A stretch of DNA of 64,000 nt from an uncultured Gammaproteobacteria bacterium. Lineage in GTDB: Bacteria > Pseudomonadota > Gammaproteobacteria > Xanthomonadales > SZUA-36. This document shows, piece after piece, positions 36,520 through 50,756 of this stretch. The position numbers were made by a program, and so were the translations under genes. Within the stretch, counting starts at the first letter, position 1. Each line of letters opens with the position of its first letter. The notes below the pieces were generated by a model. The model saw only the letters and a program-made list of their open reading frames with translations, did not search any database and was not told where the DNA came from. Location: NCBI GenBank assembly GCA_963704855.1, contig CAVPHY010000017.1:123292-187291 (forward strand), in the 5' to 3' direction.

Positions 36520-36532
36520 ATTAAAGCCGGCC

Positions 36533-36554
36533 AGGGTGGTGATATGACCACCTT
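36533..36554. terminator. Weak hairpin between convergent malQ and glk
   Basis: agggtggt-gatatg-accacctt, followed by tgtt. The stem includes one G-U pair. Confidence 0.35.
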
Positions 36555-36619
36555 TGTTAAACCGGATAGCGGTATGAAATTTGCCGGTCCTGGTTCTCTT
36601 TACTCCAATGGGTCGTCCA

Positions 36620-37618
36620 TTAATCAGCCAATTCGACAGCTGGCTTCAGGAAGAGCTCACGGGCGCAATAGCTGGCGCCCAGCAGACCGGGTTGCGGATG
36701 CTGGATCAGTAATGTGGGAACCTTTTCCATCAGGGTGCGATGGCGCCCTTTGTTTTCAAACCCGGCGCGGAAATCGCTGGCATTGAGCAGGTCCGGATAA
36801 CGTTTTACGATGCCACCAGCCAGGTAGACACCATCATAGGCGCCCAGCGCCAGCGCGAGGTTGCCGGCGATCTGCCCGAGCACCTCGAAAAACAGGGCAG
36901 TTGCCTCCACCGCAATCGCATCCTCTTTGGCCAGTACACGTGAAAATATTTCGGCGGCACTGATCGTCTCGGTAGATTCACCGCGAATACTGCACAAGGC
37001 CCAGTAGATGTTTTCAAGCCCGGGACCGGATATCAGCCGCTCGTTCGAAACACGGTCAAATCGCGCACGTAGGTGCTCCAATACCTTCATCTGCATGCGC
37101 GTTTCCGGTGCGAAACCTGCGTGGCTGCCTTCGCCTACGACCGGGTAAATACCGCTCTCGCGAACCAGCAATCCACCGGCACCCAGGCCGGTGCCCGGGC
37201 CCAGCACAGCGAATGTGGCCTGTCTTTTCTCAACCGGCTTTGCGGGTAGAAGTCCGATGCTGGAAACATCATTTTCAGCGAGCAACGGAATGGAAAAGGC
37301 GATCGATTCAAAATCATTCAGTAAACGAACGGCGGGTGTGCGAAATTTTTCCCGCAGTAGCCGGCCGTCAATTACCCAATGATTGTTGCTGAAGCGCACA
37401 CGCTCATCCACAACCGGTCCGGCTGCGGCCAGGCAAATGAGGTAGGGCTTGCCGCTTCCACTGCGCCCGAGGTAATCCTCGACTCCCTGTTCCGCTGTTT
37501 CGTAATCGGCGCAGGCCAGTGTCATTTCGTTGTAGAAACCGGGCTCATCGGGTCTGGCCAAAGCGAAACGCGCGTTGGTACCACCGATGTCACCGATCAG
37601 CAGGCAGGGCTCAGTCAT
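36620..37618 (-). CDS. glk: Glucokinase
   Basis: LLIGDIGGTNARFALA N-terminus. 332 aa. ROK-unrelated Glk family pattern GPGTGLG. Confidence 0.88.
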   Translation of the reverse strand: MTEPCLLIGDIGGTNARFALARPDEPGFYNEMTLACADYETAEQGVEDYLGRSGSGKPYLICLAAAGPVVDERVRFSNNHWVIDGRLLREKFRTPAVRLLNDFESIAFSIPLLAENDVSSIGLLPAKPVEKRQATFAVLGPGTGLGAGGLLVRESGIYPVVGEGSHAGFAPETRMQMKVLEHLRARFDRVSNERLISGPGLENIYWALCSIRGESTETISAAEIFSRVLAKEDAIAVEATALFFEVLGQIAGNLALALGAYDGVYLAGGIVKRYPDLLNASDFRAGFENKGRHRTLMEKVPTLLIQHPQPGLLGASYCARELFLKPAVELAD

Positions 37619-37655
37619 CCATGTTCACCATTTGTACAGTAGCCGATGAAAATCG

Positions 37656-38816
37656 CTATTCAAGCCATTCGCGCAACTGCGCGTATACTTCCCCACGCCC
37701 CAGCATATCGATATGACCGGTTTCAAACCCGAGCCACTGGCGGTCTTCAGGAAACTGTAATTTACGTGTCAAATCCTGGTTGCGGCCGAGCGCGCTGTCG
37801 ACCGGTACAAGGCCGTCTCCGATCAGGCGCTCATGAATACGGGTCGGCTTTTTAGCCAGTGTTGCGGCCATCGCGTAACATTTAACGCTGTCAGGAAGCG
37901 GCACAAATTCCCGGTCTATATCGGTAATGGTGCCGTGCCTCAGATCGGCAATACCTGCACTGCGTTTTTTCCCAAGCCTTGTAAACGGTGCGGAATAGGG
38001 GCTCAGGTCCATCGCATAATCAAGCCAGTTTCCCCCACGCTCGAGCGGCGCACCGTGATGCGGGGAGCCGAGGCAAAACAGCTTATTGAGATACGCCATC
38101 CAGCCGTGCCCCGCCTGGCTACCATGGTGAATCGCACTTCTCGCAACCAGGCCACCCATACTGTGGCCGACAATCGCAAGTTCACTGATCGGACAGGGCC
38201 AGGTGTGCTGCAGGGTTTCCAGCATCGAGGCTAGTTCGCGGCCGTTTGCCGCGATCGGCAAACCGGTGTTGTAGCGCAGGTAAAGCGGCGTGTATCCCAG
38301 GTCGGTGGCGAGTGCTTCGCCGTGGTTGATACCGTCACGGGTCCAGTGTCCATCATTGAGACACAGGCCATGCACGAACAACAGTACTTTGCCGCTGGCA
38401 CCGGTAAGCGCTTCCGGTTGCTCCGGATTCAGCTGTTTACCCTGGTAGCGAAAACACATTTTGACTGCGAGCGGATTATCCGTTTCCAGCAGGTGATCTC
38501 CATACGCGCCGTTGATCACCGCGACGAAAGAATCGCGGGTGGCGTTAGAAGCCTCCTCCGGCAGCATTGCCATGACCGGGGCCATGCCTGCATCGAGCCC
38601 ACGGCCGACCAAACGGGTTGTGCCACGTACGCTGCGGTAGACGAAACCGGTGATGCCGCTCGTAGTGCCGGCCCGTGATGCACCCACGGGTGATTGCCTG
38701 AGCTGGATGGTGTGATGCAGCTTTTCGACCACATCGGTTACACCGACAGTCGCATCCACGGCCAGGCGCACCATGCCGCGAATATCGGAGAGCGACCCCC
38801 GGTTAATCAGGCCCAT
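37656..38816 (-). CDS. Alpha/beta-hydrolase (lipase/esterase-like); no obvious signal peptide
   Basis: Nucleophile elbow IVGHSMGGLVA. LFVHGLC.. oxyanion region. 386 aa. Confidence 0.75.
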   Translation of the reverse strand: MGLINRGSLSDIRGMVRLAVDATVGVTDVVEKLHHTIQLRQSPVGASRAGTTSGITGFVYRSVRGTTRLVGRGLDAGMAPVMAMLPEEASNATRDSFVAVINGAYGDHLLETDNPLAVKMCFRYQGKQLNPEQPEALTGASGKVLLFVHGLCLNDGHWTRDGINHGEALATDLGYTPLYLRYNTGLPIAANGRELASMLETLQHTWPCPISELAIVGHSMGGLVARSAIHHGSQAGHGWMAYLNKLFCLGSPHHGAPLERGGNWLDYAMDLSPYSAPFTRLGKKRSAGIADLRHGTITDIDREFVPLPDSVKCYAMAATLAKKPTRIHERLIGDGLVPVDSALGRNQDLTRKLQFPEDRQWLGFETGHIDMLGRGEVYAQLREWLE

Positions 38817-38825
38817 GTGCTTGTT

Positions 38826-41336
38826 TCAACCTTCCGTAATATCGACCGTGTCGACCACGGTTTCCCGGTTACGCATCATCAGCCAGCGCACCAGCGCAGG
38901 CAGAAGAACGATGGCACCCACCATGTTGGCCAGGAAGATGAACGACAGGAGAATACCCATATCCGCTTGCAGTTGCAGGCTTGAGAACGCCCAGGTACCG
39001 ACACCGGCGCCCAATGTCAGGCCGGTAAAAATTACCGCCTTACCCGTGAGCCTGAGTGTTCTGTAATAGGCATCGCGTAATGGGTAACCGGCCTTTAAAA
39101 GTATATCCAGGCGGTTATAAATATAGATGCCGTAGTCCACACCGATACCAACGCCCAGCGCGACCACCGGCAGCGTATTGACCTTCAACCCGATGCCATA
39201 CACAGCCATCAGGGCTTCTGCCAGGGTTGAAACAACCACCAGTGGCAGAACGATACACAGGGTTCCAAGGAACGACCGGTAGGTGACCATGCAAAGAACA
39301 ATTATGGAGGCAAACACCAGTGCCAGCATGGGCTTTTCAGCTGCTGCGATATCTTCATTGGTCGCTGCCATCACACCCACATTGCCGGTGGCGAGGCGGA
39401 AACGCAGCTTTTCAGGCGTGACTTCGTCTTCGCTTGCCAGGTCTTCCAGAGTTTCGTTCTCCAGCCTTAATGTGAGGTCTTCCACATCCAGTTCCTCGCG
39501 CAGCTCTTTCACGCGTTGCACGATACGGGCGATGGTTTCAGCCTTGTGATCGGTCGTAAACACCATGATCGGCATGGCGCTGCAGTCCACGTTCAGCAGA
39601 CCGGTGGCCGTGTCGATACCACTCAGGGCCTGGCGCAGTACATAATTATCCCTGGGCAGGATACGCCACTTGATATTGCCTTCGTTCCAGCCCGAGTTGA
39701 CCACCTTGGCCACCATCGGCAAGGTGATTACCTTTTGCACACCCTCTACATTGGCCAGGTTCCAGGCAAAGCGGTCCATGGTCTCCATGACCTGGTAATT
39801 TTCTGTGCAGGCATTGGCATTGGTTTCCGCCACGACAGTCAGCACATCCACGCCGAGCGAGAACCGATCGGAGATCAACATTGCATCGCGGTTATAACGT
39901 GCTTCCGGACGAAGCTCCGGCACACCGACCTCAGAATCACCGATTTTCATATCCAGGGCCAGCCAGAACCCTACGACGAAAAGCCCAATGGATACGGCGA
40001 TCGCCCAGGCGGCGCGTTTGGGCTCGGTGAAATCGGCCAGGAAATCAAAGAACGGAGATTTCTTGGCAGCGTTGCGCATCATGCGGGTGCGATACCTGTC
40101 CGGGTTCTTTAACTTTACCCAGGACAATAGAACAGGCAACAGAAGCAGATTGGTCAGGATGATAACCGCGACACCGATACTGGCGGTGATCGCAAGCTCC
40201 TGGATAATGCGGATACTAATAAACAGGATGGTCAGGAACCCGATGGTGTCGGAAACCAGCGCAATGACACCAGGCGCCAACAGCTTCTTGATCGTCTCGC
40301 GTGAACCATGCATCGGAGAACGCCGCGGAACATCTTCAAGGGTTTTAACCCCGCGCGCCAACCAGTAATCCGGGGTATGGCCGCCAAATTCTTTCTCCAC
40401 CCGCCAGGCACTGATCTTCTGCACACCATGGCTGACGCCGATCGCAAAAATCAGGAACGGGGTCAGTATGTTCATCGGATCAAGGCTATAGCCCAACAGG
40501 CTGAGCGTCCCCATTTGCCAGATGACAGCAACCAGTGAACAGGTCAGCGGCAGCACCGTTAACCAGACTGATCTCGAATAGATGTATAACAATATGGCAG
40601 TGATCACCAGGGCGATCAGGAAGAACCAGACAACCGAACGGGCGCCATCCGAGATATCGCCAACGATCTTGGCAAAGCCGATGATGTGCACCGTGAAATC
40701 ATCACCCTCAAACTTGGTACGTATCGCCTCGAGTTGTGAAGCAACTTCGCGGTAGTCCAGTTTTTCCCCGGTCTGCGGGTTCTCCTCGAGCAGGTTGGCC
40801 CACACCATGGCGCCGGAAAAATCTGCGGAAACCAGGCGGCCCACCTCACCGGATTTGACAATATTTGAGCGTACCTGCTCAAACATTTCCTCCGAGGGCG
40901 CGTAATCCGATGGGATGACGTTGCCGCCGGCAAAGCCATCTTCCACGATTTCGACAAAGCGGACGTTGGGTGTAAATATCGAGCGCACACTGGCACGGTC
41001 GACACCCGGAATAAAGAATACCTGGTCGGTAATGGTTTCGAAGGCTTCGAAGAACTCCGGTGTGAACATGTTGCCATCGCGCGCCACCAGGGCCACCAGA
41101 ACGCGGTTGGCTCCGCCAAACTCCTTTTCGTACTGCAGGAAGGTTTGCATGTACTCGTGTTTGAGCGGCAACTGTTTTTTAAACCCGGTTTCGATTCGCA
41201 GGTTTGACATCGCGAACATCATGCCGATGGTGATAATAAAGAAAAGACCGACGATACCGTAGCGGTTGTTAATCAGGAAGGTGGCAATCTTGTGAAGACG
41301 GGTGTTATCCGGATCGTTCAGCATCGGATCATTCAT
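38826..41336 (-). CDS. RND superfamily transporter of the MMPL / HpnN-like type
   Basis: 836 aa. Two 6-TM bundles, each preceded by a large periplasmic loop. Its start overlaps the stop of the upstream BNR gene by 8 nt. Confidence 0.8.
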   Translation of the reverse strand: MNDPMLNDPDNTRLHKIATFLINNRYGIVGLFFIITIGMMFAMSNLRIETGFKKQLPLKHEYMQTFLQYEKEFGGANRVLVALVARDGNMFTPEFFEAFETITDQVFFIPGVDRASVRSIFTPNVRFVEIVEDGFAGGNVIPSDYAPSEEMFEQVRSNIVKSGEVGRLVSADFSGAMVWANLLEENPQTGEKLDYREVASQLEAIRTKFEGDDFTVHIIGFAKIVGDISDGARSVVWFFLIALVITAILLYIYSRSVWLTVLPLTCSLVAVIWQMGTLSLLGYSLDPMNILTPFLIFAIGVSHGVQKISAWRVEKEFGGHTPDYWLARGVKTLEDVPRRSPMHGSRETIKKLLAPGVIALVSDTIGFLTILFISIRIIQELAITASIGVAVIILTNLLLLPVLLSWVKLKNPDRYRTRMMRNAAKKSPFFDFLADFTEPKRAAWAIAVSIGLFVVGFWLALDMKIGDSEVGVPELRPEARYNRDAMLISDRFSLGVDVLTVVAETNANACTENYQVMETMDRFAWNLANVEGVQKVITLPMVAKVVNSGWNEGNIKWRILPRDNYVLRQALSGIDTATGLLNVDCSAMPIMVFTTDHKAETIARIVQRVKELREELDVEDLTLRLENETLEDLASEDEVTPEKLRFRLATGNVGVMAATNEDIAAAEKPMLALVFASIIVLCMVTYRSFLGTLCIVLPLVVVSTLAEALMAVYGIGLKVNTLPVVALGVGIGVDYGIYIYNRLDILLKAGYPLRDAYYRTLRLTGKAVIFTGLTLGAGVGTWAFSSLQLQADMGILLSFIFLANMVGAIVLLPALVRWLMMRNRETVVDTVDITEG

Positions 41337-42306
41337 CGCCGTCTCCTTGTCCGACTAATTCAGGGTAGCGGTGCACACCATCCTCTCCCACCAGCAGAAA
41401 ATTACCGTCTCCAAGCGATATTACAGACGCAAAATCCACCCCGCTGGAGTGGTGATAAACACGGAAGCCGCTGGAATCATCCCTGACCAGGAGAATTCCA
41501 CTATTGGCGCCCAGCAGGACAAGGTCTTCATATTCTGCGGCGCCCGAAATACTGGATTCCGAACCGGTTTCAATCTCGTTCCAGCTTGAACCAAAATCGC
41601 AACTCTCGATAACGTGGCCGCGAAGACCGTAGAACAGTACACACTCCTCATTTGTTTTCAACGCACCCCACATCGAACCCAGGTAAGGTAAATCGATGCC
41701 TTCCCATGTTTCGCCGTTATCAAAACTCCGGTAGGAAAGCCCGGCCTCGCCGGCTATCAGCCATCGGCCATCACCGAAATACAGCAGGCTGTTGAGATGG
41801 TAGTCGCTCTCCTCGTCAACCGTGTTTTCGTCCCAGGTTTTGCCACCGTCGCTGGTATAAAGGAACAAACCATAAGAACCAACTGCCACGCCGTTGCTCT
41901 CATCGGTAAAGTAGATATCCATCACGGCCTGGTTACGCTCAGGTTCAAAATGCAGTCGGGTCCAGTTTCTGCCCTTATCCGCACTGGTGATAATGACCGC
42001 ATCATGCCCGCCGGCCCAAACCCGGTCACCGATACTGAAAACCGTGGTCAGTGTTGAACGGGTGGGTACATGCTCGGCCTGGGTCCAGGTTTCGCCATCG
42101 GCAGAGGTCACAACATGTCCACGCTCACCGACCGCCACGAGGTTTTTTCCGGAACGGGTAACATCGAGCAACATGGATTTTGTAGCCAGCGGCATTTGTT
42201 CCGCATACTCAACATCGAAGTGGTGATCCGCCTGGACAGACGTAACCAGCCATGCTGCAACAAGGAAAGTACAAAAGATCGAAAGAAGTCTGTTTGATCG
42301 GGTCAT
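41329..42306 (-). CDS. BNR/Asp-box repeat beta-propeller protein (YCF48 / PSII-assembly-factor-like); secreted
   Basis: Signal peptide. Repeated SxDxGxxW boxes: SADGETWTQ, SADKGRNWTR, TSDGGKTWDE, SFDNGETWEG, SCDFGSSWNE. Confidence 0.8.
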   Translation of the reverse strand: MTRSNRLLSIFCTFLVAAWLVTSVQADHHFDVEYAEQMPLATKSMLLDVTRSGKNLVAVGERGHVVTSADGETWTQAEHVPTRSTLTTVFSIGDRVWAGGHDAVIITSADKGRNWTRLHFEPERNQAVMDIYFTDESNGVAVGSYGLFLYTSDGGKTWDENTVDEESDYHLNSLLYFGDGRWLIAGEAGLSYRSFDNGETWEGIDLPYLGSMWGALKTNEECVLFYGLRGHVIESCDFGSSWNEIETGSESSISGAAEYEDLVLLGANSGILLVRDDSSGFRVYHHSSGVDFASVISLGDGNFLLVGEDGVHRYPELVGQGDGDE

Positions 42307-42366
42307 CAGATGATTATGTTACCTGCCAAATGAAAAGGCCAGCGATCGCTGGCCTTTTCAAATCAC

Positions 42367-43731
42367 TTAACGATGACCACGGGTGCGCAGCGCCTGCGGG
42401 GTGAACTGTGTCGGTTGTAGCTCGACATTGAACGTATTGACCGCAGAGGTGTTATCAAAACCCTGTGCCACATACCTGCCGGACTGGAGGTCGTAATGGG
42501 TTTCGATGGTGGACCAGGTGGTCGGTACATCGTAATAGTTGATCGAATGGCATTCGGAGGCACGCCACAATTGCTCGCGGCCGTCGTAATGGTCGATCAG
42601 CACGATCTGGTAGCTGTCTTCATCCAGGTAGAAGGTGCGTCTTGCATTGATATGCCGCATACCATCTTTGAGCCTGGCATCGATCACCCAGACACGATGC
42701 AATTCATAACGCATCAGCTCCGGATTCAGGTGGCCCGGACGAACAAACTGCTCGTAGGTTACGCCTTCGGCGTGTGCCCCATAGGAATTGTAGGGAATGT
42801 ACATTTCCTTCTTGCCAACCACCGTCCAGTCAAAGCGGTCCATGGCGCCGTTGAACATGTCGGTCATGTCATTGGTGCGCAAACCGTCAGACGCGGTACC
42901 TGGATTGTCATAGGCGACGTTAGGTGCACGCCGTACCCTGCGTTGACCTGGATTGTATATCCAGGCCTGGCGGGGTGTTACCTGCTGGTTGAGGGTTTCA
43001 TGCACCAGCAGGATGTTACCTGCCAGACGTGCGGGTGATTCCACTTCCTGGAAGAAATACAGCAGGATGTTGTCGATCTCTTCGATGGTGACACCGCGTT
43101 TGTAGTACAGGCCCAGCAGTTCTTCACGGATTACGGTCACCGAGAAATCACCGCCAGCGGTAGGTGCAATCTGCGTGTTGTAGCGAACCCCGCCGGTACC
43201 CTTGTACTTGAGCTTGTGATTCCACATCAGTTCATAGGCGTTCTCCGGGAATGGGAACGGGAAGCCTTCCGCGGCATCCAGTACACCCTCACCATTTTCA
43301 CCAAGCCTTGCAGTTTCGGCATTCTTGGCGGTCATCTCATAGATATGTTCCGGGAACGACGCGCTACGCCGGCTCGGATAAACATCCATGTAATAGGTAT
43401 CGGGGTATTTTGCAAAAGTGGATTTTTGGCCGACGCTCAGCTGATCGCCATATTCCTGGTAGTTTGCACCGGTGATACGGAACAACGGTTGGTCATCCTT
43501 GAATGGATCCTGGTGATGATCACCCGGCTTGTACTCCGCTGGCGGGGATGTAATACCGCCCGTCCACGCGGGGATCGTGCCCGCCGCGTTGCCGGCCCGT
43601 TCGGAACCCATCGGGGTCAGCTCCTCGCTCAGGCGATGAACCTGGTCAGGTTTGGCTCCTGCAACTGCCTGTCCAATTCCAATGGCCAGACCAATGCAGA
43701 TTGAAAGTGTATATTTTGTAAAAGTTCGCAT
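42367..43731 (-). CDS. DUF1329 family (LolA-like fold) periplasmic/outer-membrane-associated protein
   Basis: Signal peptide. ELTPMGSERAGNAAGTIPAWTGG.. N-terminal signature typical of DUF1329. 454 aa. Confidence 0.8.
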   Translation of the reverse strand: MRTFTKYTLSICIGLAIGIGQAVAGAKPDQVHRLSEELTPMGSERAGNAAGTIPAWTGGITSPPAEYKPGDHHQDPFKDDQPLFRITGANYQEYGDQLSVGQKSTFAKYPDTYYMDVYPSRRSASFPEHIYEMTAKNAETARLGENGEGVLDAAEGFPFPFPENAYELMWNHKLKYKGTGGVRYNTQIAPTAGGDFSVTVIREELLGLYYKRGVTIEEIDNILLYFFQEVESPARLAGNILLVHETLNQQVTPRQAWIYNPGQRRVRRAPNVAYDNPGTASDGLRTNDMTDMFNGAMDRFDWTVVGKKEMYIPYNSYGAHAEGVTYEQFVRPGHLNPELMRYELHRVWVIDARLKDGMRHINARRTFYLDEDSYQIVLIDHYDGREQLWRASECHSINYYDVPTTWSTIETHYDLQSGRYVAQGFDNTSAVNTFNVELQPTQFTPQALRTRGHR

Positions 43732-43746
43732 AAGTTTCTCCGGCGA

Positions 43747-45673
43747 TCAGAATGAGTAACGGACACTGGCGGAAAAGAAATCCCGGTCCTGAACCAGGTT
43801 GTATATACCACCGCCCATGTAACTGGTGTAGGAAAGGTCAAAAATCCACTCGTTCAGGTAATTGAACTCCACGCCCAGTGTGAGTGCTTTAGTGCCATCG
43901 ATGAAAGAACCACCGGGGCCGGGTGTTGTACCACTGACATCCTGAGCCCAGGCAATTCTCGGCGAGACGGTCGTAGGTCCTAGTGCATCGTTGTAATCAG
44001 CCTTCACCAGCAGTCGGTAGCCCCAGCTGAAAGCATCCGCGAAAGCACCCGCAGGCTCGGTGATGGGGTTGCGTAAATCACCGGTCAGGTAATCATAACC
44101 GCCACCGGTATCGGTGCCCGGACCGTTAATTCTCAGGTCATCCTTATCCGGCATATCAGATACGTAATTCATACCAACCTCGGCAACAAACGCTATCTGG
44201 TTCGCCTTGAGGAAATTACCCGGACCAAACAGTTTTGTCGTCGTGAGTCTGACCCTGCCAGGAATTGTATTCGTCATAGCCCGTGATCAACTCACCCGCC
44301 TCAAAATCACCCAGCTGGCTGTGGAACTCGAGCGCGTGGGACGGCATCAGGACATTCAGCGGTGTCAGGGCAGCAAACAACAGCTCAATGTCATCAAGCT
44401 GCAATGGCAAATTTGGACGATAGCTGACTTCACCCGACAATGACCAGGTACCAATATTCGAGTTAAAACTGGCACCCCAAAGATGAATATCTTCCGGATA
44501 TTCGGTGAAGTAACGAGCGGTAGTGGCTCCACTACCTGTTACGGCCAAACCACTGTTCAAAGGCAAACGACTATGGTAGTTAAGGTAATAAAAACCAAAT
44601 TCCGTGCCATTCAGCTGCTCAGCAAAATAGCGTAAAGCTAAACCCCATTGACCACTGTCACTGGGATCAATGGTATCTGTCCGTGGGACCGCGGCACTAC
44701 AACCGGCAGCGACCAGCGAGGGCGGTAATTGCGAGTCGGATTGATCATAGTTGCCCTGCATACAGACCGTGTCAAACAGATCAGGGTTGATCACCGGTTG
44801 GTCCGGGGCACCGAAACCCAACATGACATACTTACCACCCGGTGTACCAAAGTCATTGGTGGAAAAATAGGCGCCGTCAGGATCAGGAATAATTTCCCGG
44901 TATTCGAACATATAGAGCGCTTCCAGCGACAGGCTTGGTGTCAGGTCAATCGAGCCCGTAATCATATTGACCCCTTCAAAAGCCTCTTTTAGCTCGGCAC
45001 CCGCTACCCTGAGCCTGGATACATCCACGGGATTGATCACATTGATACCACCCTGAATAAAGGTGGATTCACCCCAACTGACCACCTGGCGACCCAAGCG
45101 CCAGTTCAGGAAACGGTCACCAATCTCGTTTTCACCCCAAATATACAAATCAAGTAATCGAATATCCTTACCTACACGCTCGATAGCGTCTTCGGAGAGA
45201 AAATCCTTGTTGTGATTCTCGAAATCGTAGAACCCCATAAAACGGGTGAAAGCGCCATAATTCTTATAGCGCACATCAAGCTCCGATGTGAACTTGATGG
45301 TATTGGCAACCAGGTCACCGCTATTCGGGTAGTTTCGATTGCCGTCATCCGTGTTAACTGACCAACGACCCGGCGCCAGGCGTTTCGTGGCGTTGTCTGC
45401 CGCCACTATGAGCGGGTTGAGATAAGCCTTACCGACATAATCCTCATCCAGATCGCCGGCCCGCCAGATCGCCCCATAACTTATCGTTGTATCGAAGCTT
45501 CCGGACCATTCACCTTCTGAAAATTCGATGGCGTTGGCACTGGTGGCGCTCAAAGCCAATAATGAGACGGCGAGCGCTCCAGGGAGGAGTTTCCGTTTCC
45601 AGCGTTTATCTGCCGTTTGAGCGGAAACTGGTGCATGTGTATTCAAGAGCCGTGTTGCTGTTGTCATTTTCAT
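43747..45673 (-). pseudogene. DUF1302 family predicted outer-membrane beta-barrel, split into two overlapping frames by a +1 frameshift
   Basis: ORF 44216..45673 (485 aa, signal peptide, ..SFDTTISYGAIWR..) and ORF 43747..44277 (176 aa, ends ..SASVRYSF) overlap by 62 nt in different frames. Together they total ~640-660 aa, the usual DUF1302 length. Confidence 0.7.
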
Positions 45674-45683
45674 CTCCCACTCC

Positions 45684-48020
45684 TTACTCTAACCTGTCCG
45701 GTTGGTCATAATTCTTGACCTGCTCAAGCCTGCTTACCGATCCTCTTCTTGTCACGGGTGCGGGTTTGCCCTTGTATTTTGAAGATTGTGAAGCCTTCTT
45801 TTCGGTCAGGTCGACGACCGCCTGGGGCACCACCGGCACCACCGGTACCATGGTGTCCGGGTTACTGACAACGACCGCACCACCGAATGAGCCGATGAAG
45901 GTTGCCGCTTGCCCCTGCATTTCAAAAAATGCGGCCGGGGACGTTGACGGGTCTAACCATGAACCATGTGATGCGGGTGGTATAAACCGGCCCGCCGCGC
46001 GTAACCCCTCGGCACTCTGCTGTGTGCTGCTGTAGGCCTTGAGCCCCATGATCTTGATCAATGGTTCCGTACCTGCCAGCGGTGAAGTGGCCACGAAATT
46101 GGGTATCACCTGGTCGTTGATAACCTCGTGCAACAGGATCGGTGTATTCGTCGCAGCTGCCGCAGCCCAGTTGATCGGATCAGCTGAATCGAGGACGGTC
46201 TGCCAAACGAGGAAGAAAGACTCGTAATCCGCTGTTCCTGGATAGACACCCTTGCTGGCAAGACCTGCACGAATAATTGGTCCGAAACTGGCTGAAGCTT
46301 CCGCAAAACGCGCGATGCCGCCGCCAGGTACCGAAAGGAATGAACGTGTCACGAGCGGCTCAATGGCGGTGAAGACCGTACCATGTATACCGCCCCATGA
46401 CTGGCCGGCGTATGCAATATTGGTGGCGTCGGTATCCGGTGACTGGTCACCATCAAAATCCATCGATGCGATCGAAACCGCCAGTACCGACAAATCGGTT
46501 TCACCCTGCCGGATAAGATCACGCCCGACCAGCATGTTGGAGAGACCTGCAGAGACCGCGTGCGAACCCGAGGCATCAATCAGGCCATCCGGCCCGGGTG
46601 CACCGGTTGCGTTATTAATGTAGTCCACGTCAAAAGTACGTTCGTTGGCAATGGGTCCAAAAGGCGTATTCTCTACCCACAGGGACGCATACTGAGGTGT
46701 TGCATCCGGGCTGATGCCATGCATCGGAAAGTCCATGGCGATTACCGCGTAGCCCGCTGCAGCGAAACCATCGGCAGCGCCCAGTACATCCAGGCGGCTG
46801 CGCGTTATACCATGACCGAATATCACGACCGGCCAGCCATTGGCCGGTTTGGCCGTTCTCGGTATCGTTATCAGCAACGGCACAGTTTGCATACCCGTCA
46901 GGACCGGTAGCGGATTCGCGATCGTAATGTTGGTCGAGGTTGGGTCCAGACCAAACTGATCAAAAGGCGGCACATACGCACCGGGGGCCGCTTTCCAGAA
47001 TGTGTTCAGCGGTGCGACGGGGTTTTGGGCGGAAGGTATACCCGCGTAGTAAGGTATCGTGATGATGCCCATATATATATCGGCCGCGCCAGGTGAACCT
47101 GGCACCAGGTCGCTGGTGTTATAACCCGTCGGTGCGATGGTTGTCGGCGCCGGCTGGGCAAAGGCACGCAGTGTTTTCAGGGTACGTGTAACGGATTGTG
47201 TCTGCGCAGTCCAGGCGAGAACGATATCGGCTGGGTTGATACCGACCGAGGCCGCGTTCAGCTCCATGCTCCGTATAACCTGCCTGATCAATTCAAGCCG
47301 TGCTGCATCTGAATTACTGAAAAGGGAATTGGTGCTATTGCCGTTTGCATCCACCCAGGGAACCGAGGTTTTGCCTAAGTAGTAGGTTCTGTCCGGTGTC
47401 GCATCATTGCCGGCGGTATCACGAATGTCATTGGTCAATACCGCCATGTAGGAGGTAAATTCCTTAAGCGGTTTCAACGGTAAAATCGCGACCTGGCTGG
47501 CCGAGGCCGGAACGGCCACGTAATCCACCCCGGGGGTCAACTCCCTGACGATGCTGGTCACAAAAAGATACTGCGACATGGTGACTTCAAACATCCTGAC
47601 GGATTGACCGGTTTTAACCGTCGCCGGATTGATCGAGCCTGGTACCGCGTTGGTATAAGCACCGGTGTCGTTATTGGCAAAACTGGCGATCCACTTTTCC
47701 GTTGTGCTGTATCCATCCAGTGCATTGAGCGCCACCCTCGGGTTCGAATAATCGTTGGGGTCTGGCACCGGGGTATTCAGTGTCAAATCAGCAGGACCCA
47801 TCAGGTTGCCGGCCGAGTCAAGTGCGAAAAACCCAAGGTTGGAAGGAAATGGCGCTGCCACCGCAACACCAGGTTGAGGAAACGGATTAAAGCTGGCCGT
47901 CAGGACACCCGTAATAATACTGCCATCCTTATTCGTTGCAGGTCCGTGATGTGCGTAGACATTGATTGCAGTGAGTGAGAAAAACAGAGAGAGAATTAGA
48001 AGAGCTAAACGCGTTTTCAT
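45684..48020 (-). CDS. Secreted lipase with a bacterial lipase N-terminal domain (VolA-like) plus an alpha/beta-hydrolase domain
   Basis: The true start is probably MKTRLALLILSLFFSLTAINVYA (ATG 48020), not 48206. GHGITRSR.. oxyanion region. GQSWGG nucleophile elbow. Confidence 0.7.
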   Translation of the reverse strand: MKTRLALLILSLFFSLTAINVYAHHGPATNKDGSIITGVLTASFNPFPQPGVAVAAPFPSNLGFFALDSAGNLMGPADLTLNTPVPDPNDYSNPRVALNALDGYSTTEKWIASFANNDTGAYTNAVPGSINPATVKTGQSVRMFEVTMSQYLFVTSIVRELTPGVDYVAVPASASQVAILPLKPLKEFTSYMAVLTNDIRDTAGNDATPDRTYYLGKTSVPWVDANGNSTNSLFSNSDAARLELIRQVIRSMELNAASVGINPADIVLAWTAQTQSVTRTLKTLRAFAQPAPTTIAPTGYNTSDLVPGSPGAADIYMGIITIPYYAGIPSAQNPVAPLNTFWKAAPGAYVPPFDQFGLDPTSTNITIANPLPVLTGMQTVPLLITIPRTAKPANGWPVVIFGHGITRSRLDVLGAADGFAAAGYAVIAMDFPMHGISPDATPQYASLWVENTPFGPIANERTFDVDYINNATGAPGPDGLIDASGSHAVSAGLSNMLVGRDLIRQGETDLSVLAVSIASMDFDGDQSPDTDATNIAYAGQSWGGIHGTVFTAIEPLVTRSFLSVPGGGIARFAEASASFGPIIRAGLASKGVYPGTADYESFFLVWQTVLDSADPINWAAAAATNTPILLHEVINDQVIPNFVATSPLAGTEPLIKIMGLKAYSSTQQSAEGLRAAGRFIPPASHGSWLDPSTSPAAFFEMQGQAATFIGSFGGAVVVSNPDTMVPVVPVVPQAVVDLTEKKASQSSKYKGKPAPVTRRGSVSRLEQVKNYDQPDRLE

Positions 48021-48353
48021 TATCAGTTCCCCATAGTAAGTACAGAGTACAAATCGCTTTCCGAAAATTCGGCAGAAACAATAACCGGCTGCGGGCGAGA
48101 CTGAAATGTATACCTGAATAGAGCCAGGTTCACTTAAATTCAGAGCAGAGTCGAACCCCAAGCACTTGGTTTTCTGATCATCATACGGCACAGTTAACAA
48201 AAACAAAACGTTTCAATCATAGTATTTGATCTAGGTCAATTTGCCAGGCTCAAAATTTTCATGGAACAAGTCGATTCGGAGGAAGCTTTTCTAATGTTTG
48301 GCAATCCGGATCACATGCTTGCTAAACTGCCGCAACCCGCAGGAGGTTAAAAC

Positions 48354-48650
48354 GTGTCAACCATCGACATTCACGCGTTTCACAAACTCAGCCACGAAGA
48401 TGCGCTGAATGCCGCGGACGCATTATCCATCGATCTTGCTGAGAAGTTCGGTATTGATTATGGCTGGGATGACGAGGTGATCCACTTCGAGCGCCCCGGG
48501 GTCAATGGGCAAATCGAGGTCAGGGAAAATGAACTCAGGATCCAGGCCAACCTGGGTTTCATGCTCATGTTGTTAAAACGGCCCATTGAAGATGAAATCG
48601 TGCGTTACCTCAAACAGCATTTCGGCTGCAGTTTCGATCAGTTGGCCTAG
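48354..48650 (+). CDS. Polyhydroxyalkanoic-acid-system family small protein (PHA_gran_rgn-like)
   Basis: GTG start preceded by aggagg. 98 aa. ..FGIDYGWDDEVIHFERPGVNGQIEV..LRI.A.LGFML.. matches my memory of this family. Confidence 0.6.
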   Translation: MSTIDIHAFHKLSHEDALNAADALSIDLAEKFGIDYGWDDEVIHFERPGVNGQIEVRENELRIQANLGFMLMLLKRPIEDEIVRYLKQHFGCSFDQLA

Positions 48651-48673
48651 GAGCCTGTCGGATCTAACATTAT

Positions 48674-49375
48674 CTACTGCGAAAAAGGATTTGCATCACC
48701 GGCAAATAAGCGCTGCATGATTTTGTCCTCGTTGTTCCAGATGGTTTCGATAAATTCAGTACCATCACCCATAATCTGAAACGCCCTCAAACCCTGCTCC
48801 AGGAATGTCTGCAACAAACCGAAACCGGCCGCCCGGGCCGGGCCCCTCAATGTACGTATCAGGAACATGACCAGGCGGTGGTGAACCAGTTCGTTCAGCT
48901 CGAGACCGAGGTGGCCGATCAATTCAATCTGTCTTTCACGTTCTAACCGCCGTCCGCAGATACGGTAAATTTCACCGTAACGGTGGGTGTTCAACGCATC
49001 CCATCCGGATTGCTTCAATGCGGCCGTCATATCCATATCGAGGCTCAGGCTCAATGCCTGGAGTTCAAAGGCTTCGGCCAGCGCCAACAGCATATCTTCC
49101 CGCAACATTCTGACCATCACCGGCAGGACACGCTCCATCTGCTGGTCCCGTTCGCGGAAATTCAAACCGCCATAGAGTTCGGCCAGGAAAAAGTCGCCGG
49201 CTGCGGCATAACGTTCCTGGCTTATCAGGTCATGGTAACTGTTGGCGAGACGGCGGCGTTGCCATTGCTGTAAAACCTCCAGCTCTGCGTGCGGGAAGCC
49301 GGGCGCATCTAAGCGCTCTGCCAATTCATGGCTGTCGCTCAGGGCCTGCCTGAGATGATCCGCATATCGCTTCAC
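48674..49375 (-). CDS. Conserved hypothetical protein with an FFLAELYG motif
   Basis: 233 aa helical protein, divergent from the patatin gene. No enzymatic motif recognised. Confidence 0.5.
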   Translation of the reverse strand: MKRYADHLRQALSDSHELAERLDAPGFPHAELEVLQQWQRRRLANSYHDLISQERYAAAGDFFLAELYGGLNFRERDQQMERVLPVMVRMLREDMLLALAEAFELQALSLSLDMDMTAALKQSGWDALNTHRYGEIYRICGRRLERERQIELIGHLGLELNELVHHRLVMFLIRTLRGPARAAGFGLLQTFLEQGLRAFQIMGDGTEFIETIWNNEDKIMQRLFAGDANPFSQ

Positions 49376-49514
49376 TGCAATCTTCTCCTTTCCCCGCTGA
49401 CATGGCGTGAGCCGCCTGTATGTCCACGGTGTAAACCACTTATTAATATGGCGTCACACTGGTTATTCGCAAGCCGCATCGGTAAAATCGGTGCCATCCA
49501 CGGAGGCTGACAAC

Positions 49515-50756
49515 ATGCTAACGATACATCAGGCCCGGACACCGAACCAGCAACAAGTCCCGGCCAAAACCGGTCTTGCAATCGGGGGCGGAGGACCGGT
49601 GGGTGCGATTTATGAGCTGGGCTCGCTGCGTGCGCTGGATGAAAGCATCAATGGTGTGAAGCTGCATGAACTGGATGTCTATGTGGGTGTCAGTTCGGGC
49701 GCGCTGATCGCGGCCAGCCTGGCCAACGGTATTACAACAATCGAACTTTGTCGCATATTCATGGGCCAGGAGTACGCCAGCGTCCGCTTCGATCCTGAAC
49801 ACCTGATGCGGCCTGCTTTCAAGGAATACCTGGATCGTGCCTCCATGCTGCCCGCGGTATTGTCCAAAGCGTTGATGAAAATGATCCGTAATCCCGGTAC
49901 GACCAATATTACGCAGCTTGTCAGCCAACTCGGCAAGGTGATTCCCAGTGGTGTCTTTGACAACGAAGCCATCCATGATTTTTTGGAAAATGCCTTCAGG
50001 GTCTCCGGAAGCAGCAATGATTTCAATGAACTGAAATGCGCCCTGTACATTGTCGCGGTTGACCTGGACAGTGGCGCCGCCGTGCGCTTTGGCAGTAACG
50101 GGCGTCGCAACGTCAGCATTGCACGTGCGGTGCAGGCCAGCGCAGCGCTGCCAGGTCTCTACCCGCCGGTAAAGATTGACGGCCACTATTATGTAGACGG
50201 CGCATTGCGTCGGACCCTGCATGCATCGGTTGCACTGGACGAGGGCGTGGATCTGCTCATAGGCGTTAACCCGCTGGTACCTTTTGATTCGGGTGAAAAG
50301 GGGCAAAACGCCGGTGTTTCCGATCAAAGACTGAACCGCGGCGGATTACCAATGATTCTGTCGCAAACATTTCGAGCACTGATCCAGTCACGGATGGAAG
50401 CCGGCTTCAGAAAGTATTACAGCAGTCACCCTTTTGCCGACCTGGTCCTGCTGGAGCCGCATCGCCAGGATGAGAAGATTTTCTTTACCAATATCTTCAG
50501 CTACAACAGCCGTCACGCGCTTTGCGAACATTCCTACCAGGTCACCCGCAAAGACCTGTTGGCCAGGCATAAGGAAATCAGCGCGATACTGGAAAAACGC
50601 GGTATGTCACTCAACATGGAATTTCTCGCAGACCCGCACCGCACGCTCGGCGACAGCATTGGCGAGGGCCGTTCAAGCCATGCACCGGTGGCCCGCGACC
50701 TGACCCGGATACTTGATAACCTCGACGAACTGCTGGAAGAACGCAAGGCCAGTTAA
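49515..50756 (+). CDS. Patatin-like phospholipase
   Basis: Start at the ATG at 49515, preceded by ggagg. Oxyanion loop GLAIGGGGPVG. GxSxG (GVSSG). Catalytic Asp (YVDGAL). Confidence 0.85.
   Translation: MLTIHQARTPNQQQVPAKTGLAIGGGGPVGAIYELGSLRALDESINGVKLHELDVYVGVSSGALIAASLANGITTIELCRIFMGQEYASVRFDPEHLMRPAFKEYLDRASMLPAVLSKALMKMIRNPGTTNITQLVSQLGKVIPSGVFDNEAIHDFLENAFRVSGSSNDFNELKCALYIVAVDLDSGAAVRFGSNGRRNVSIARAVQASAALPGLYPPVKIDGHYYVDGALRRTLHASVALDEGVDLLIGVNPLVPFDSGEKGQNAGVSDQRLNRGGLPMILSQTFRALIQSRMEAGFRKYYSSHPFADLVLLEPHRQDEKIFFTNIFSYNSRHALCEHSYQVTRKDLLARHKEISAILEKRGMSLNMEFLADPHRTLGDSIGEGRSSHAPVARDLTRILDNLDELLEERKAS

What the first reader, a model, noticed from the sequence alone, without database searches (positions are those of the whole stretch)
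37656..48020. Six-gene cluster that could form an envelope-spanning lipid/ester capture-and-transport system
Six minus-strand genes are packed with gaps of 10, 15, 60, -8 and 9 nt. In order they are:
- a secreted VolA-like lipase (GQSWGG)
- a DUF1302 predicted outer-membrane barrel
- a DUF1329 LolA-like protein
- a secreted BNR/YCF48-like propeller
- an MMPL-type RND transporter
- an alpha/beta-hydrolase (GHSMGG)

glk follows 37 nt later. The parts list is an OM barrel, a periplasmic hydrophobic-ligand carrier fold, a periplasmic propeller and a PMF-driven inner-membrane RND. That is what a trans-envelope lipid conduit would need. It is bracketed by two serine hydrolases that could generate or process the cargo.

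To my knowledge neither DUF1302 nor DUF1329 has a demonstrated biochemical function. No structure-function model exists for the four-protein core.
Basis: partly seen in the sequence, partly recalled or inferred. Interest (0 to 1): 0.8.

Follow-up and report, generated by a model that had tools for sequence, protein, structure and literature searches.

The report
Lipase-linked DUF1302/DUF1329/RND envelope lipid transporter operon
This is a real, tightly packed operon. It joins an already described but biochemically unsolved four-protein envelope machine (outer-membrane barrel, LolA-like carrier, propeller, RND pump) to a VolA-type lipase and a cytoplasmic esterase, which is a useful clue that the machine handles lipid esters; in this sequence the barrel gene carries a one-base frameshift.

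Summary
The six minus-strand genes, their families and all stated gaps are confirmed. A 99.2%-identical contig has the gene intact.

The four-gene core (DUF1302, DUF1329, BNR/YCF48 propeller, HAE3/MMPL RND) is not new:
- Price et al. described it as a cofitness module.
- It is AmeABCD in Castellaniella.
- It is required in Pseudomonas putida for growth on Tween 20 and butyl stearate.
- It has been modelled with AlphaFold-Multimer as a transport system (Foldy 2024, ECLIPSE 2026).

In 80 species-level genomes the core order is almost universal and its flanks are otherwise unrelated.

The accessory genes appear to be unreported:
- A VolA/Pla-1-like lipase sits immediately upstream in 18 of 20 close relatives. 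Most of these are predicted lipoproteins, as VolA is.
- A signal-less PGAP1-like esterase sits 9-32 nt downstream of the RND gene (9-10 nt in all but one) in every close relative examined through it.
- glk is only a neighbour.

Best reading (about 0.45): a lipid-ester acquisition operon analogous to volA-fadL. The main rival (about 0.33) is efflux or envelope-lipid export.

Verdict: a new variant of a known kind, of moderate interest.

The parts
45684..48020 (-). VolA/Pla-1-like secreted serine lipase, 778 aa. It has an N-terminal beta-rich (Lipase_bact_N / Ig-like) half and a C-terminal alpha/beta-hydrolase half, followed by a disordered basic tail (residues 730-778). The signal peptide is SPase-I type, with no lipobox.
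   Evidence: Pfam PF12262 at 1.2e-14. NCBIfam TIGR03502 scores 295 bits, below its cut-off of 383.9. S541 (in GQSWG) and H685 are invariant and D636 is near-invariant across 48 homologues. The AlphaFold2 model has pLDDT 86 and pTM 0.84. Only the hydrolase half matches esterases in the PDB.
43747..45673 (-). DUF1302 outer-membrane beta-barrel gene. As it stands in this window it is interrupted and reads as ORFs 44216-45673 (485 aa) and 43747-44277 (176 aa).
   Evidence: Pfam PF06980 at 3.7e-126 (profile positions 3-405) and 1.4e-39 (positions 405-541). It has a signal peptide ending ...ANA|IE and a C-terminal ...VRYSF. Intact homologues of 632-641 aa occur in L002, L084, L085 and L088. The family is reported as an 18-stranded barrel in PMC13499233.
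44248..44249 (-). Site of the single-base insertion that frameshifts DUF1302. The extra base lies in GGTCA[G]ACTC and is not in a homopolymer run.
   Evidence: blastn and tblastn against L001-L003 and against the 99.17%-identical contig L084, where this base is the only gap in 6731 nt.
42367..43731 (-). DUF1329 periplasmic LolA-like carrier, 454 aa, with an SPase-I type signal peptide.
   Evidence: Pfam PF07044 at 3.7e-144 and PF17131. The AlphaFold2 model has pLDDT 92 and pTM 0.90. Top Foldseek matches are 9tp6 LolA3 (target TM-score 0.86), 3bk5, 4z48 (a DUF1329 protein, 0.80) and 3buu. A profile search of PDB sequences hits 9tp6 and 4z48.
41329..42306 (-). Periplasmic BNR/YCF48-like beta-propeller, 325 aa. 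Its gene overlaps the RND start by 8 nt.
   Evidence: Pfam PSII_BNR at 5e-21 and Sortilin-Vps10. N-terminal signal peptide. It lies immediately upstream of the RND gene in nearly all loci.
38826..41336 (-). Inner-membrane RND transporter of the HAE3/MMPL type, 836 aa.
   Evidence: Pfam MMPL at 1e-23 and Patched SSD. NCBIfam HAE3 TIGR00921 scores 158 bits, below its cut-off of 351.9. Hydropathy shows a TM segment at 28-46, a loop of about 180 aa, a TM cluster at 228-404, a TM segment at 443-461, a loop of about 230 aa and a TM cluster at 694-812. The nearest solved sequences are the MmpL4/5/3 exporters.
37656..38816 (-). PGAP1-like alpha/beta-hydrolase (GHSMGG), 386 aa. It has no signal peptide or TM segment and is predicted to be cytoplasmic.
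   Evidence: Pfam PGAP1 scores 39 bits against a cut-off of 24.3. The maximum 19-aa hydropathy is 1.21, and the ORF cannot be extended upstream. It has weak similarity to the esterase BlEst2, 6wpx. Homologues lie 9-32 nt after the RND gene (9-10 nt in all but L002) in L002, L085, L087, L088 and L089.
48021..48353 (.). Intergenic region of 333 nt between the lipase start and the divergent PHA_gran_rgn gene. It is the presumed promoter region of the operon.
   Evidence: It is the only sizeable non-coding gap bordering the cluster. The consensus promoter scan found no minus-strand sigma-70 match there, and overall counts did not exceed shuffles. Promoter function is an inference.

Best explanation
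The cluster is a single operon for acquiring exogenous lipid esters. A VolA/Pla-1-type serine lipase is exported by Sec. In most related operons it is lipid-anchored, like the surface lipoprotein VolA; here it carries a basic C-terminal tail instead. The lipase attacks lipid esters at or in the outer membrane. Its hydrophobic substrate or products then enter through the DUF1302 barrel encoded 10 nt downstream. The LolA-like DUF1329 protein shields them in the periplasm. They are handled at the inner membrane by the BNR-propeller/HAE3-RND pair, and remaining ester bonds are cleaved by the cytoplasmic PGAP1-like esterase.

Shown here: gene content, order, predicted folds and localisations, and the conservation of each linkage.
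Shown by others: the four core genes are cofit and are needed for growth on fatty esters but not on free fatty acids.
Inferred: the substrates, the physical coupling of the lipase to the barrel, and above all the inward direction of transport.

In this particular window the barrel gene carries a one-base frameshift. The system is therefore either inactive in this strain or the base is a sequence error.
For: 1. All intergenic gaps are 60 nt or less, with one 8-nt overlap, and terminator-like sites in the region do not exceed shuffled controls.
2. The lipase lies immediately upstream of DUF1302 in 18 of the 20 loci that have DUF1329 identity of at least 57% and enough upstream sequence. Lipase identity falls to 44% across these loci, and the gap is 11 nt or less, or an overlap, in the loci where an intact lipase ORF could be measured (two assemblies, L001 and L004, have a broken lipase gene).
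3. Ten of the more distant operon-linked lipases have lipoprotein signal peptides (L-x-[AG]-C-G/S), as VolA does.
4. volA is cotranscribed with an outer-membrane fatty-acid channel, fadL, across a 16-23 bp gap, and couples fatty-acid release to uptake (PMC3656444).
5. The PGAP1-like esterase has no signal peptide. It follows the RND gene by 9-10 nt in all four relatives fetched through hydrolase homologues (hydrolase identity 68-81%), and by about 32 nt in L002.
6. P. putida mutants in the four core genes have severe defects specific to Tween 20 and butyl stearate compared with laurate and myristate, in pooled assays where public goods give no phenotype (10.1101/2020.07.04.188060).
7. Fatty-acid-CoA-ligase-like genes follow the RND gene in 6 loci. 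Acyl-CoA ligases also neighbour PP_0765/6 orthologues in pseudomonads. plsB lies upstream in 4 loci.
8. AlphaFold-Multimer models in the literature place DUF1329 on the DUF1302 barrel (ipTM 0.84) and, in a separate complex, with the BNR and RND proteins (PMC13499233, PMC10866462).
Against: - Every bacterial RND transporter characterised so far moves cargo outwards. The nearest solved relatives here are the MmpL3/4/5 exporters and HpnN.
- Deleting ameABCD lowers monoterpene tolerance and raises Nile red accumulation, which points to efflux (PMC6394551).
- In Shewanella amazonensis and P. stutzeri the phenotypes are pleiotropic.
- In most taxa the core sits among housekeeping genes (pepN, gdhB, uvrA) with no lipase.
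- The window's lipase falls below the VolA/Pla-1 family cut-off and has no lipobox.
- The ester-specific fitness defect could reflect detergent or solvent toxicity rather than failed uptake.
- No enzyme activity, localisation or transcript has been measured for this locus.
Confidence: 0.45

Rival explanations
1. Outward transport. The four-protein core is a PMF-driven exporter that moves hydrophobic or amphiphilic molecules from the inner membrane or periplasm to the outer membrane or the medium. The cargo would be an envelope lipid, or toxic amphiphiles such as free fatty acids, lysolipids, detergents and terpenes. The lipase would be linked because its products must be cleared, or because it remodels envelope lipids.
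For: - RND precedent: the closest families are HAE3 (HpnN) and the MmpL exporters.
- The ameABCD deletion mutant is less terpene-tolerant and accumulates more Nile red (PMC6394551).
- Price et al. proposed export of a cell-wall component from pleiotropic cofit phenotypes.
- Suvorova and Gelfand place the four genes in phenol regulons as a solvent-stress response (PMC6449761).
- The genomic context of the core in most of the 80 loci is housekeeping genes.
- A Bcr/CflA efflux MFS gene follows the hydrolase in L085 and L089.
Against: - It does not explain why a cytoplasmic esterase is coupled to the RND gene by a gap of about 10 nt.
- It does not explain why fatty-acid-CoA ligase genes recur next to the core.
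- It does not explain the volA-fadL-like pairing of a lipoprotein lipase with an outer-membrane barrel.
- Butyl stearate is not a detergent, yet it gives the same mutant defect as Tween 20.
Confidence: 0.33
2. Lipoprotein display machine. The LolA-like DUF1329 and the DUF1302 barrel, energised by the RND/propeller pair, deliver the lipase to the cell surface. More generally they would deliver acylated proteins there, answering the open question of how VolA-type lipoproteins cross the outer membrane.
For: - DUF1329 has the LolA/LolB fold.
- Most operon-linked lipases are predicted lipoproteins.
- How VolA reaches the surface is unknown (PMC3656444).
- An ester-specific growth defect would follow if a cell-bound esterase were mislocalised.
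Against: - The core is present without any adjacent lipase in about three quarters of the loci.
- The window's own lipase has no lipid anchor.
- VolA is correctly surface-exposed in E. coli. From my own knowledge, not tested here, E. coli lacks DUF1302 and DUF1329.
- Lipoprotein extraction is normally done by an ABC transporter (LolCDE), not an RND.
- LolA3, the closest structure, does not pair with LolB.
Confidence: 0.07
3. Adjacency without shared function. The lipase and the PGAP1-like hydrolase are independent genes that happen to flank a housekeeping envelope operon in this lineage.
For: - Both accessory genes are confined to one clade, while the core is found across several phyla.
- L001, a close relative with 88% DUF1329 identity, lacks the hydrolase.
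- The region also holds unrelated neighbours, namely glk and a starch-utilisation locus.
Against: - The lipase-DUF1302 junction stays at 11 nt or less, or an overlap, while lipase identity falls to 44% across Wenzhouxiangellaceae, Marinicella, Tahibacter, Rudaea and others.
- The RND-hydrolase junction stays at 9-10 nt in four relatives and about 32 nt in L002, down to 68% hydrolase identity, while the genes after the hydrolase change.
- Published phenotypes already tie the core to ester use.
Confidence: 0.1

Closest known systems
DUF1302-DUF1329-BNR(COG4447)-RND(COG1033) cofitness module. Examples are Sama_1588-1591 in Shewanella amazonensis and PP_0765/PP_0766 plus PP_2018/PP_2019 in Pseudomonas putida (10.1101/072470; 10.1101/2020.07.04.188060; PMC10866462).
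   Same: The same four families occur in the same order and orientation. DUF1329 is 50-52% identical to the Alteromonadales and Pseudomonas representatives. The predicted localisations match. The published phenotype, a need for these genes on Tween 20 and butyl stearate, fits a lipase-linked operon.
   Different: Here, and in one gammaproteobacterial clade, a VolA-like lipase is fused to the 5' end of the operon. In the closest subclade a cytoplasmic PGAP1-like esterase is fused to the 3' end. There is no LuxR-type regulator next to the cluster. The barrel gene is frameshifted in this window.
AmeABCD of Castellaniella defragrans (PMC6394551).
   Same: It has the same four-component composition: the outer-membrane DUF1302 protein AmeA, the periplasmic DUF1329 protein AmeB, the COG4447 protein AmeC and the HAE3 RND AmeD. 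The authors describe it as a distinct HAE3 lineage that is always encoded with these partners.
   Different: AmeABCD lies in a monoterpene catabolic island, is induced by terpenes and is interpreted as an efflux or tolerance system. It has no lipase or esterase partner. Sequence relatedness to the window proteins was not measured here.
VolA-FadL of Vibrio cholerae (PMC3656444).
   Same: A VolA/Pla-1-family lipase gene lies a few nucleotides from, and in the same operon as, an outer-membrane channel for hydrophobic molecules. Most operon-linked homologues are predicted outer-membrane lipoproteins. The logic is to release fatty acid at the surface and take it up at once.
   Different: The barrel is DUF1302 (18 strands, AlgE/Occ-like per PMC13499233), not FadL. 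The system adds a periplasmic carrier, a propeller and an RND. The window's lipase scores below the family cut-off and has lost the lipobox.
HAE3/MmpL lipid exporters: HpnN (hopanoids), MmpL3 (trehalose monomycolate) and MmpL4/5 (siderophores).
   Same: RND architecture with two periplasmic loops and MMPL-type transmembrane domains. The cargo is hydrophobic.
   Different: Similarity is low: all NCBIfam scores are far below their cut-offs, and only the C-terminal transmembrane bundle aligns to PDB sequences. Those systems have no DUF1302 barrel, and their direction is outward.
Lol pathway carriers LolA/LolB and the LolA-superfamily structures 9tp6, 3bk5, 4z48 and 3buu.
   Same: The C-terminal roughly 280 residues of DUF1329 adopt the LolA-like open beta-barrel with a hydrophobic groove (target TM-score 0.80-0.86).
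   Different: Sequence identity is 14% or less. An extra N-terminal domain of about 170 aa is not covered by the matches. The partners are an RND and a beta-barrel rather than LolCDE and LolB. The ligand is unknown.
NPC2-NPC1 (eukaryotic RND-superfamily sterol uptake). This is an analogy drawn from general knowledge.
   Same: A soluble lipid carrier hands a hydrophobic ligand to an RND-superfamily membrane protein that has a sterol-sensing-type domain. The window RND has a weak Patched SSD match.
   Different: No homology beyond the superfamily level. There is no evidence that any bacterial RND works in the inward direction.

Membership tests
DUF1302/DUF1329/BNR/HAE3-RND four-gene module (AmeABCD type) | An outer-membrane DUF1302 (PF06980) protein is present. 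| tested here: met
   PF06980 at 3.7e-126 and 1.4e-39 across the two frames. The caveat is the one-base frameshift in this window.
DUF1302/DUF1329/BNR/HAE3-RND four-gene module (AmeABCD type) | A periplasmic DUF1329 (PF07044) protein with a LolA-like fold. | tested here: met
   PF07044 at 3.7e-144. The AlphaFold2 model has pLDDT 92. Foldseek matches 4z48 and 9tp6 with target TM-scores of 0.80-0.86.
DUF1302/DUF1329/BNR/HAE3-RND four-gene module (AmeABCD type) | A secreted COG4447/YCF48-like BNR propeller is encoded directly before the RND gene. | tested here: met
   PSII_BNR at 5e-21, a signal peptide, and an 8-nt overlap with the RND gene.
DUF1302/DUF1329/BNR/HAE3-RND four-gene module (AmeABCD type) | An RND permease of the HAE3/COG1033 type with 12 TM segments and two periplasmic loops. 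| tested here: met
   MMPL at 1e-23. HAE3 is the best NCBIfam hit, though below its cut-off. The hydropathy layout is 1+5 / 1+5 with loops of about 180 and about 230 aa. The exact number of TM segments was not resolved.
DUF1302/DUF1329/BNR/HAE3-RND four-gene module (AmeABCD type) | Conserved gene order and co-orientation across taxa. | tested here: met
   The same order and strand occur in essentially every locus long enough to judge among the 80 species-level loci. Only three Pseudomonas loci lack the BNR and RND genes nearby.
DUF1302/DUF1329/BNR/HAE3-RND four-gene module (AmeABCD type) | Cofitness or co-expression of the four genes, and an ester or hydrophobe phenotype. | not testable with these tools
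   Known only for other organisms.
VolA/Pla-1 family phospholipase (TIGR03502) | Whole-protein score at or above the curated cut-off. | tested here: not met
   295.4 bits against a cut-off of 383.9, matched in three stretches.
VolA/Pla-1 family phospholipase (TIGR03502) | A Lipase_bact_N domain followed by an alpha/beta-hydrolase domain with a GxSxG nucleophile. | tested here: met
   PF12262 at 1.2e-14. GQSWG has an invariant S541, H685 is invariant and D636 is near-invariant. The fold is supported by the model and its Foldseek matches.
VolA/Pla-1 family phospholipase (TIGR03502) | An N-terminal lipobox, that is, an outer-membrane or surface lipoprotein. | tested here: not met
   The window protein and its close relatives have no Cys in the signal peptide. 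A lipobox is present in ten more distant operon-linked homologues.
VolA/Pla-1 family phospholipase (TIGR03502) | Lysophospholipase or phospholipase A activity. | not testable with these tools
HAE3 family RND (TIGR00921) | Score at or above the curated cut-off. | tested here: not met
   158.1 bits against a cut-off of 351.9. It is nevertheless the best-scoring family. Puentes-Cala and Harder place AmeD-type pumps in a separate HAE3 lineage.
PGAP1-like alpha/beta-hydrolase (PF07819) | Score at or above the gathering threshold, with a GxSxG nucleophile. | tested here: met
   39 bits against a threshold of 24.3, and GHSMGG is present. The substrate is unknown.

The most novel reading that the evidence does not exclude
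The DUF1302/DUF1329/BNR/RND machine is an inward-acting, PMF-coupled lipid uptake route. This would be the first bacterial RND system to import its cargo. A LolA-like carrier would hand esters or fatty acids released by a surface lipase to the RND, as NPC2 hands sterol to NPC1. The lipase-linked and esterase-linked operon in this clade would be its most complete natural form.
Probability: 0.2. Interest if true: 0.85.

Novelty: new variant of a known kind. Interest (0 to 1): 0.4.

Why it matters
The four-gene core is widespread. It occurs in Gamma- and Alphaproteobacteria, Desulfuromonadales, Opitutae, Binatia and Acidobacteriota, and PMC13499233 reports it in 629 of 635 P. aeruginosa strains. 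Mutants have clear phenotypes, yet the system still has no known substrate, transport direction or solved structure.

A conserved operon fusion to a VolA-type lipase and a cytoplasmic esterase names a concrete substrate class, lipid esters and their hydrolysis products. It also supplies the hydrolase that the P. putida work could not find. This turns a vague 'transport system' into specific experiments.

If transport is inward, it would overturn the rule that bacterial RND systems only export. If it is outward, the locus is simply another member of a known efflux or lipid-export module.

Tried and rejected
- Exact-sequence look-ups of the window's DUF1329 protein and of the 100%-identical hydrolase P0391 found no contig. 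The source record could therefore not be inspected.
- The promoter and terminator scan of 36000-49600 gave counts no higher than shuffled sequence. It says nothing for or against an operon.
- phmmer searches of the lipase and of DUF1329 against PDB sequences found nothing. Only a profile search and a fold search reached LolA-like structures.
- Foldseek with the lipase model matched only generic esterases over the C-terminal half. The N-terminal half has no solved relative.
- I considered whether the frameshift reflects an error-prone assembly. Two other overlapping ORF pairs (5675-6750 and 7658-9401) turned out to be distinct genes or to have no family match. No other split gene was seen among about 48 ORFs. 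Whether the base is an error or a real mutation remains undecided.
- I considered whether the MFS gene after the hydrolase in L085 and L089 is an LplT-like lysophospholipid flippase. This was rejected: it is a Bcr/CflA efflux-family member.
- I considered glk as part of the unit and rejected it.
- My first conclusion, from the 80 species-representative genomes, was that the PGAP1 hydrolase occurs only in the window and L002. I revised this after examining metagenomic relatives.
- Rfam and tRNA scans of the whole window found nothing.
- Literature searches for follow-up work (PP_0765/PP_2019; HAE3+LolA+BNR; COG4447/PF06980/AmeABCD) found nothing beyond the papers cited.

Full report
**1. The observation**

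ORF listing shows seven co-oriented minus-strand ORF units between 36620 and 48020.

Pfam confirms each family assignment:
- Lipase: Lipase_bact_N, plus a weak alpha/beta-hydrolase match below Pfam's cut-off.
- DUF1302.
- DUF1329, plus LolA_like.
- BNR: PSII_BNR (YCF48-like).
- RND: MMPL, plus a weak Patched SSD match.
- Hydrolase: PGAP1-like.
- Glucokinase.

The GQSWGG and GHSMGG motifs are present.

One thing was missed. DUF1302 is not a single ORF. It reads as 44216-45673 (485 aa, profile positions 3-405) and 43747-44277 (176 aa, profile positions 405-541) in different frames.

Alignment to three relatives shows a single extra base at about 44248-44249, in GGTCA[G]ACTC on the minus strand and not in a homopolymer. 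The same is seen against contig L084, which is 99.17% identical over 6731 nt with 55 mismatches. That base is the only gap in the L084 alignment, and L084 encodes an intact 641-aa protein. No other split gene is visible among the window's roughly 48 ORFs. The frameshift is therefore either a very recent inactivation or an isolated sequence error, and I cannot tell which.

**2. The proteins**

- *Lipase (778 aa).* It has an SPase-I type signal peptide (...NVYA|HH) with no lipobox. The N-terminal half is beta-rich and the C-terminal half is an alpha/beta-hydrolase. S541 (in GQSWG) and H685 are invariant and D636 is near-invariant across 48 homologues. Residues 730-778 form a disordered basic tail. 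The AlphaFold2 model has pLDDT 86. Only the hydrolase half resembles solved esterases. It hits the VolA/Pla-1 NCBIfam model at 295 bits, below the cut-off of 383.9.
- *DUF1302.* It has a signal peptide and ends in ...VRYSF, a typical outer-membrane-protein C-terminus. The family is reported as an 18-stranded barrel with no solved structure (PMC13499233; 10.64898/2026.03.07.710327).
- *DUF1329.* The model has pLDDT 92 and pTM 0.90. Its C-terminal roughly 280 residues superpose on LolA-superfamily structures: 9tp6 LolA3 (target TM-score 0.86), 3bk5, 4z48 (a DUF1329 protein, 0.80) and 3buu. An N-terminal domain of about 170 aa is extra.
- *BNR protein.* It is secreted, and its gene overlaps the RND start by 8 nt.
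- *RND.* It has the 1+5 / 1+5 transmembrane layout with two large loops. Its best family is HAE3, although below the cut-off. The nearest solved sequences are the MmpL4/5/3 exporters.
- *PGAP1-like hydrolase.* It has no signal peptide or hydrophobic segment, and its ORF cannot be extended upstream. I infer that it is cytoplasmic.

**3. Conservation**

The closest relatives are uncultured marine MAGs named Lysobacterales or Xanthomonadales, with DUF1329 identity of 82-91%.

I scanned one genome per GTDB species with a diverse DUF1329 alignment, which returned 80 loci. tblastn with the window's proteins gave the following:
- The order DUF1302-DUF1329-BNR-RND, all on one strand, holds in essentially every locus long enough to judge.
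- These loci span Lysobacterales, Wenzhouxiangellaceae, Marinicella, Colwellia and other Alteromonadales, Pseudomonas, Azospirillaceae and other Alphaproteobacteria, Desulfuromonadales, Opitutae, Binatia and Thermoanaerobaculia.
- Only three Pseudomonas loci lack the BNR and RND genes nearby, which matches the split arrangement known in P. putida and P. stutzeri.

Outside the core, the flanks are unrelated housekeeping genes. These include pepN, uvrA, nhaA and GGDEF-EAL genes upstream, and gdhB, an ornithine/aspartate carbamoyltransferase gene and gspL downstream. Two exceptions are suggestive. Fatty-acid-CoA-ligase-like genes follow the RND gene in six loci, and plsB lies upstream in four.

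The lipase is the most frequent functional neighbour of the core. It sits immediately upstream of DUF1302 in 18 of the 20 loci that have DUF1329 identity of at least 57% and enough upstream sequence. The gap is 11 nt or less, or an overlap, wherever an intact lipase ORF could be measured; two assemblies, L001 and L004, have a broken lipase gene. Lipase identity falls as low as 44%. The lipase is absent from all more distant loci.

The PGAP1-like hydrolase looked confined to the window and L002 among the species representatives. I then fetched four metagenomic loci through hydrolase homologues of 68-81% identity. In each the hydrolase lies 9-10 nt downstream of the RND gene: L085 (L086 is a shorter copy of the same locus), L087, L088 and L089. 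In L002 it follows the RND gene by about 32 nt. L001 lacks it.

In L085, L086 and L089, five to seven other genes separate the hydrolase from glk. glk therefore belongs to the adjacent starch/glycogen region, not to this unit.

**4. A detail about the lipase**

Ten of the more distant operon-linked lipases carry lipoprotein signal peptides (L-[AVSQ]-[GA]-C followed by G or S). They end about 10 residues after the last strand. The window's subfamily has no Cys but has gained a basic tail of 55-60 aa with a semi-conserved DLTEK...R(F/L)E end. This reads as an N-terminal lipid anchor swapped for a C-terminal tail. It suggests, as an inference, that cell association of the lipase matters.

**5. 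What is already known**

The four-gene core is not new.
- Price et al. found the four genes cofit in S. amazonensis (Sama_1588-1591), Kangiella, P. stutzeri and P. fluorescens. They proposed export of a cell-wall component (10.1101/072470).
- Puentes-Cala and Harder named the same cassette AmeABCD. They placed AmeD in a separate HAE3 lineage that is always encoded with these partners. Deletion lowered monoterpene tolerance and raised Nile red accumulation (PMC6394551).
- Thompson et al. showed that PP_0765/6 and PP_2018/9 have severe defects specific to Tween 20 and butyl stearate compared with laurate and myristate. They noted that no ester hydrolase had been identified (10.1101/2020.07.04.188060).
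- The Foldy paper used AlphaFold co-folding to propose a DUF1302-DUF1329 complex and a DUF1329-BNR-RND complex, described as a 'novel hypothesized substrate transport system' (PMC10866462).
- ECLIPSE reported an ipTM of 0.84 for DUF1302-DUF1329 (PMC13499233).
- Suvorova and Gelfand placed the four genes in phenol regulons as a putative solvent-stress response (PMC6449761).

The statement that no biochemical function has been demonstrated is still right. In the papers retrievable here I found no report of a lipase-linked or esterase-linked form.

**6. Mechanism**

I favour acquisition of lipid esters, with confidence of about 0.45. The reasons are these:
- The lipase-then-barrel arrangement mirrors volA-fadL. 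There, a surface lipoprotein lysophospholipase is cotranscribed with an outer-membrane fatty-acid channel, so that release and uptake are coupled (PMC3656444).
- The P. putida phenotypes are ester-specific. They appear in pooled cultures, where only private functions such as uptake or tolerance score.
- A cytoplasmic esterase tightly coupled to the RND gene, and the recurring acyl-CoA ligases, make sense downstream of import.

The main rival is export or efflux, at about 0.33. It rests on the uniform outward direction of characterised bacterial RNDs, on the AmeABCD data, on the pleiotropic phenotypes and on the housekeeping context of the core in most taxa.

Two minor rivals remain. One is a display route for the lipoprotein lipase, at about 0.07. 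The other is adjacency without functional linkage, at about 0.10.

Every step concerning substrate, direction and physical coupling is inferred. Nothing in this locus has been measured.

**7. Verdict**

The new content is the conserved addition of a VolA-type lipase and a cytoplasmic PGAP1-like esterase. This gives the unsolved machine a concrete candidate substrate class and a set of direct experiments. I rate it a new variant of a known kind, with interest 0.4.

Noticed in passing
window 45684-45840 (lipase C-terminal tail, residues about 730-778) and 47952-48020 (signal peptide); compare L006-L011, L015, L017, L019, L023: Apparent anchor swap. More distant operon-linked lipases have a lipobox and no tail. 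The window's subfamily has no lipobox but has a disordered basic C-terminal tail of 55-60 aa, with a semi-conserved DLTEK...R(F/L)E-COOH end. A few homologues (P0350, P0368, P0375) lack the tail. The function of the tail is unknown.
   Followed up: partly
window 23393-37618: A starch/maltodextrin utilisation region lies next to the cluster. It holds a TonB-dependent receptor, a tryptophan-halogenase-like protein, a cyclomaltodextrinase, a GH97, an MFS transporter, an alpha-amylase, malQ (GH77) and glk. glk belongs with these genes rather than with the lipid operon.
   Followed up: partly
window 48354-50756: Upstream of the lipase lie a divergent PHA_gran_rgn gene (98 aa), a DUF8198-like gene (233 aa, no Pfam hit in my scan) and a patatin-like phospholipase. 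The same trio is conserved in L001 and L002. PHA_gran_rgn alone, or together with DUF8198, is also seen at the cut edges of L084 and L085. This places a third lipid hydrolase in the neighbourhood.
   Followed up: no
L009 14813-15988 and L010 14818-15993 (Marinicella): A type II secretion gspL gene follows the RND gene by 4-5 nt. Surface lipoproteins such as pullulanase use type II secretion, which could be relevant to export of the lipoprotein lipase.
   Followed up: no
L026, L030, L033, L041, L046, L053 (downstream of the RND gene); L027, L031, L062, L082 (upstream of DUF1302): Fatty-acid-CoA-ligase-like genes follow the core in six loci. They are FadD11-like but score below the cut-off. plsB (glycerol-3-phosphate acyltransferase) precedes the core in four loci.
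   Followed up: partly
L015 15233-16594: A second DUF1329 paralogue (453 aa, Pfam 4.9e-154) lies directly after the RND gene in a Lysobacteraceae MAG.
   Followed up: no
proteins P0164, P0203, P0214, P0222, P0227, P0232, P0234, P0255 (840-885 aa) and P0204 (1198 aa): Some DUF1329 representatives are about twice the normal length or longer, with the DUF1329 match confined to the C-terminal part. They may be tandem DUF1329 proteins or fusions with DUF1302. This was not examined.
   Followed up: no
L001 5764-9985: A close relative (DUF1329 88% identical, ENA ERZ25039508) has a fragmented lipase gene and a DUF1302 gene split at a different position, into 115 and 515 aa. These are probably assembly errors, and they show that split genes occur in public assemblies of this clade.
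   Followed up: no
L085 11154-12350 and L089 6166-7368: In two relatives a Bcr/CflA-family efflux MFS gene follows the PGAP1-like hydrolase by about 20 nt.
   Followed up: partly
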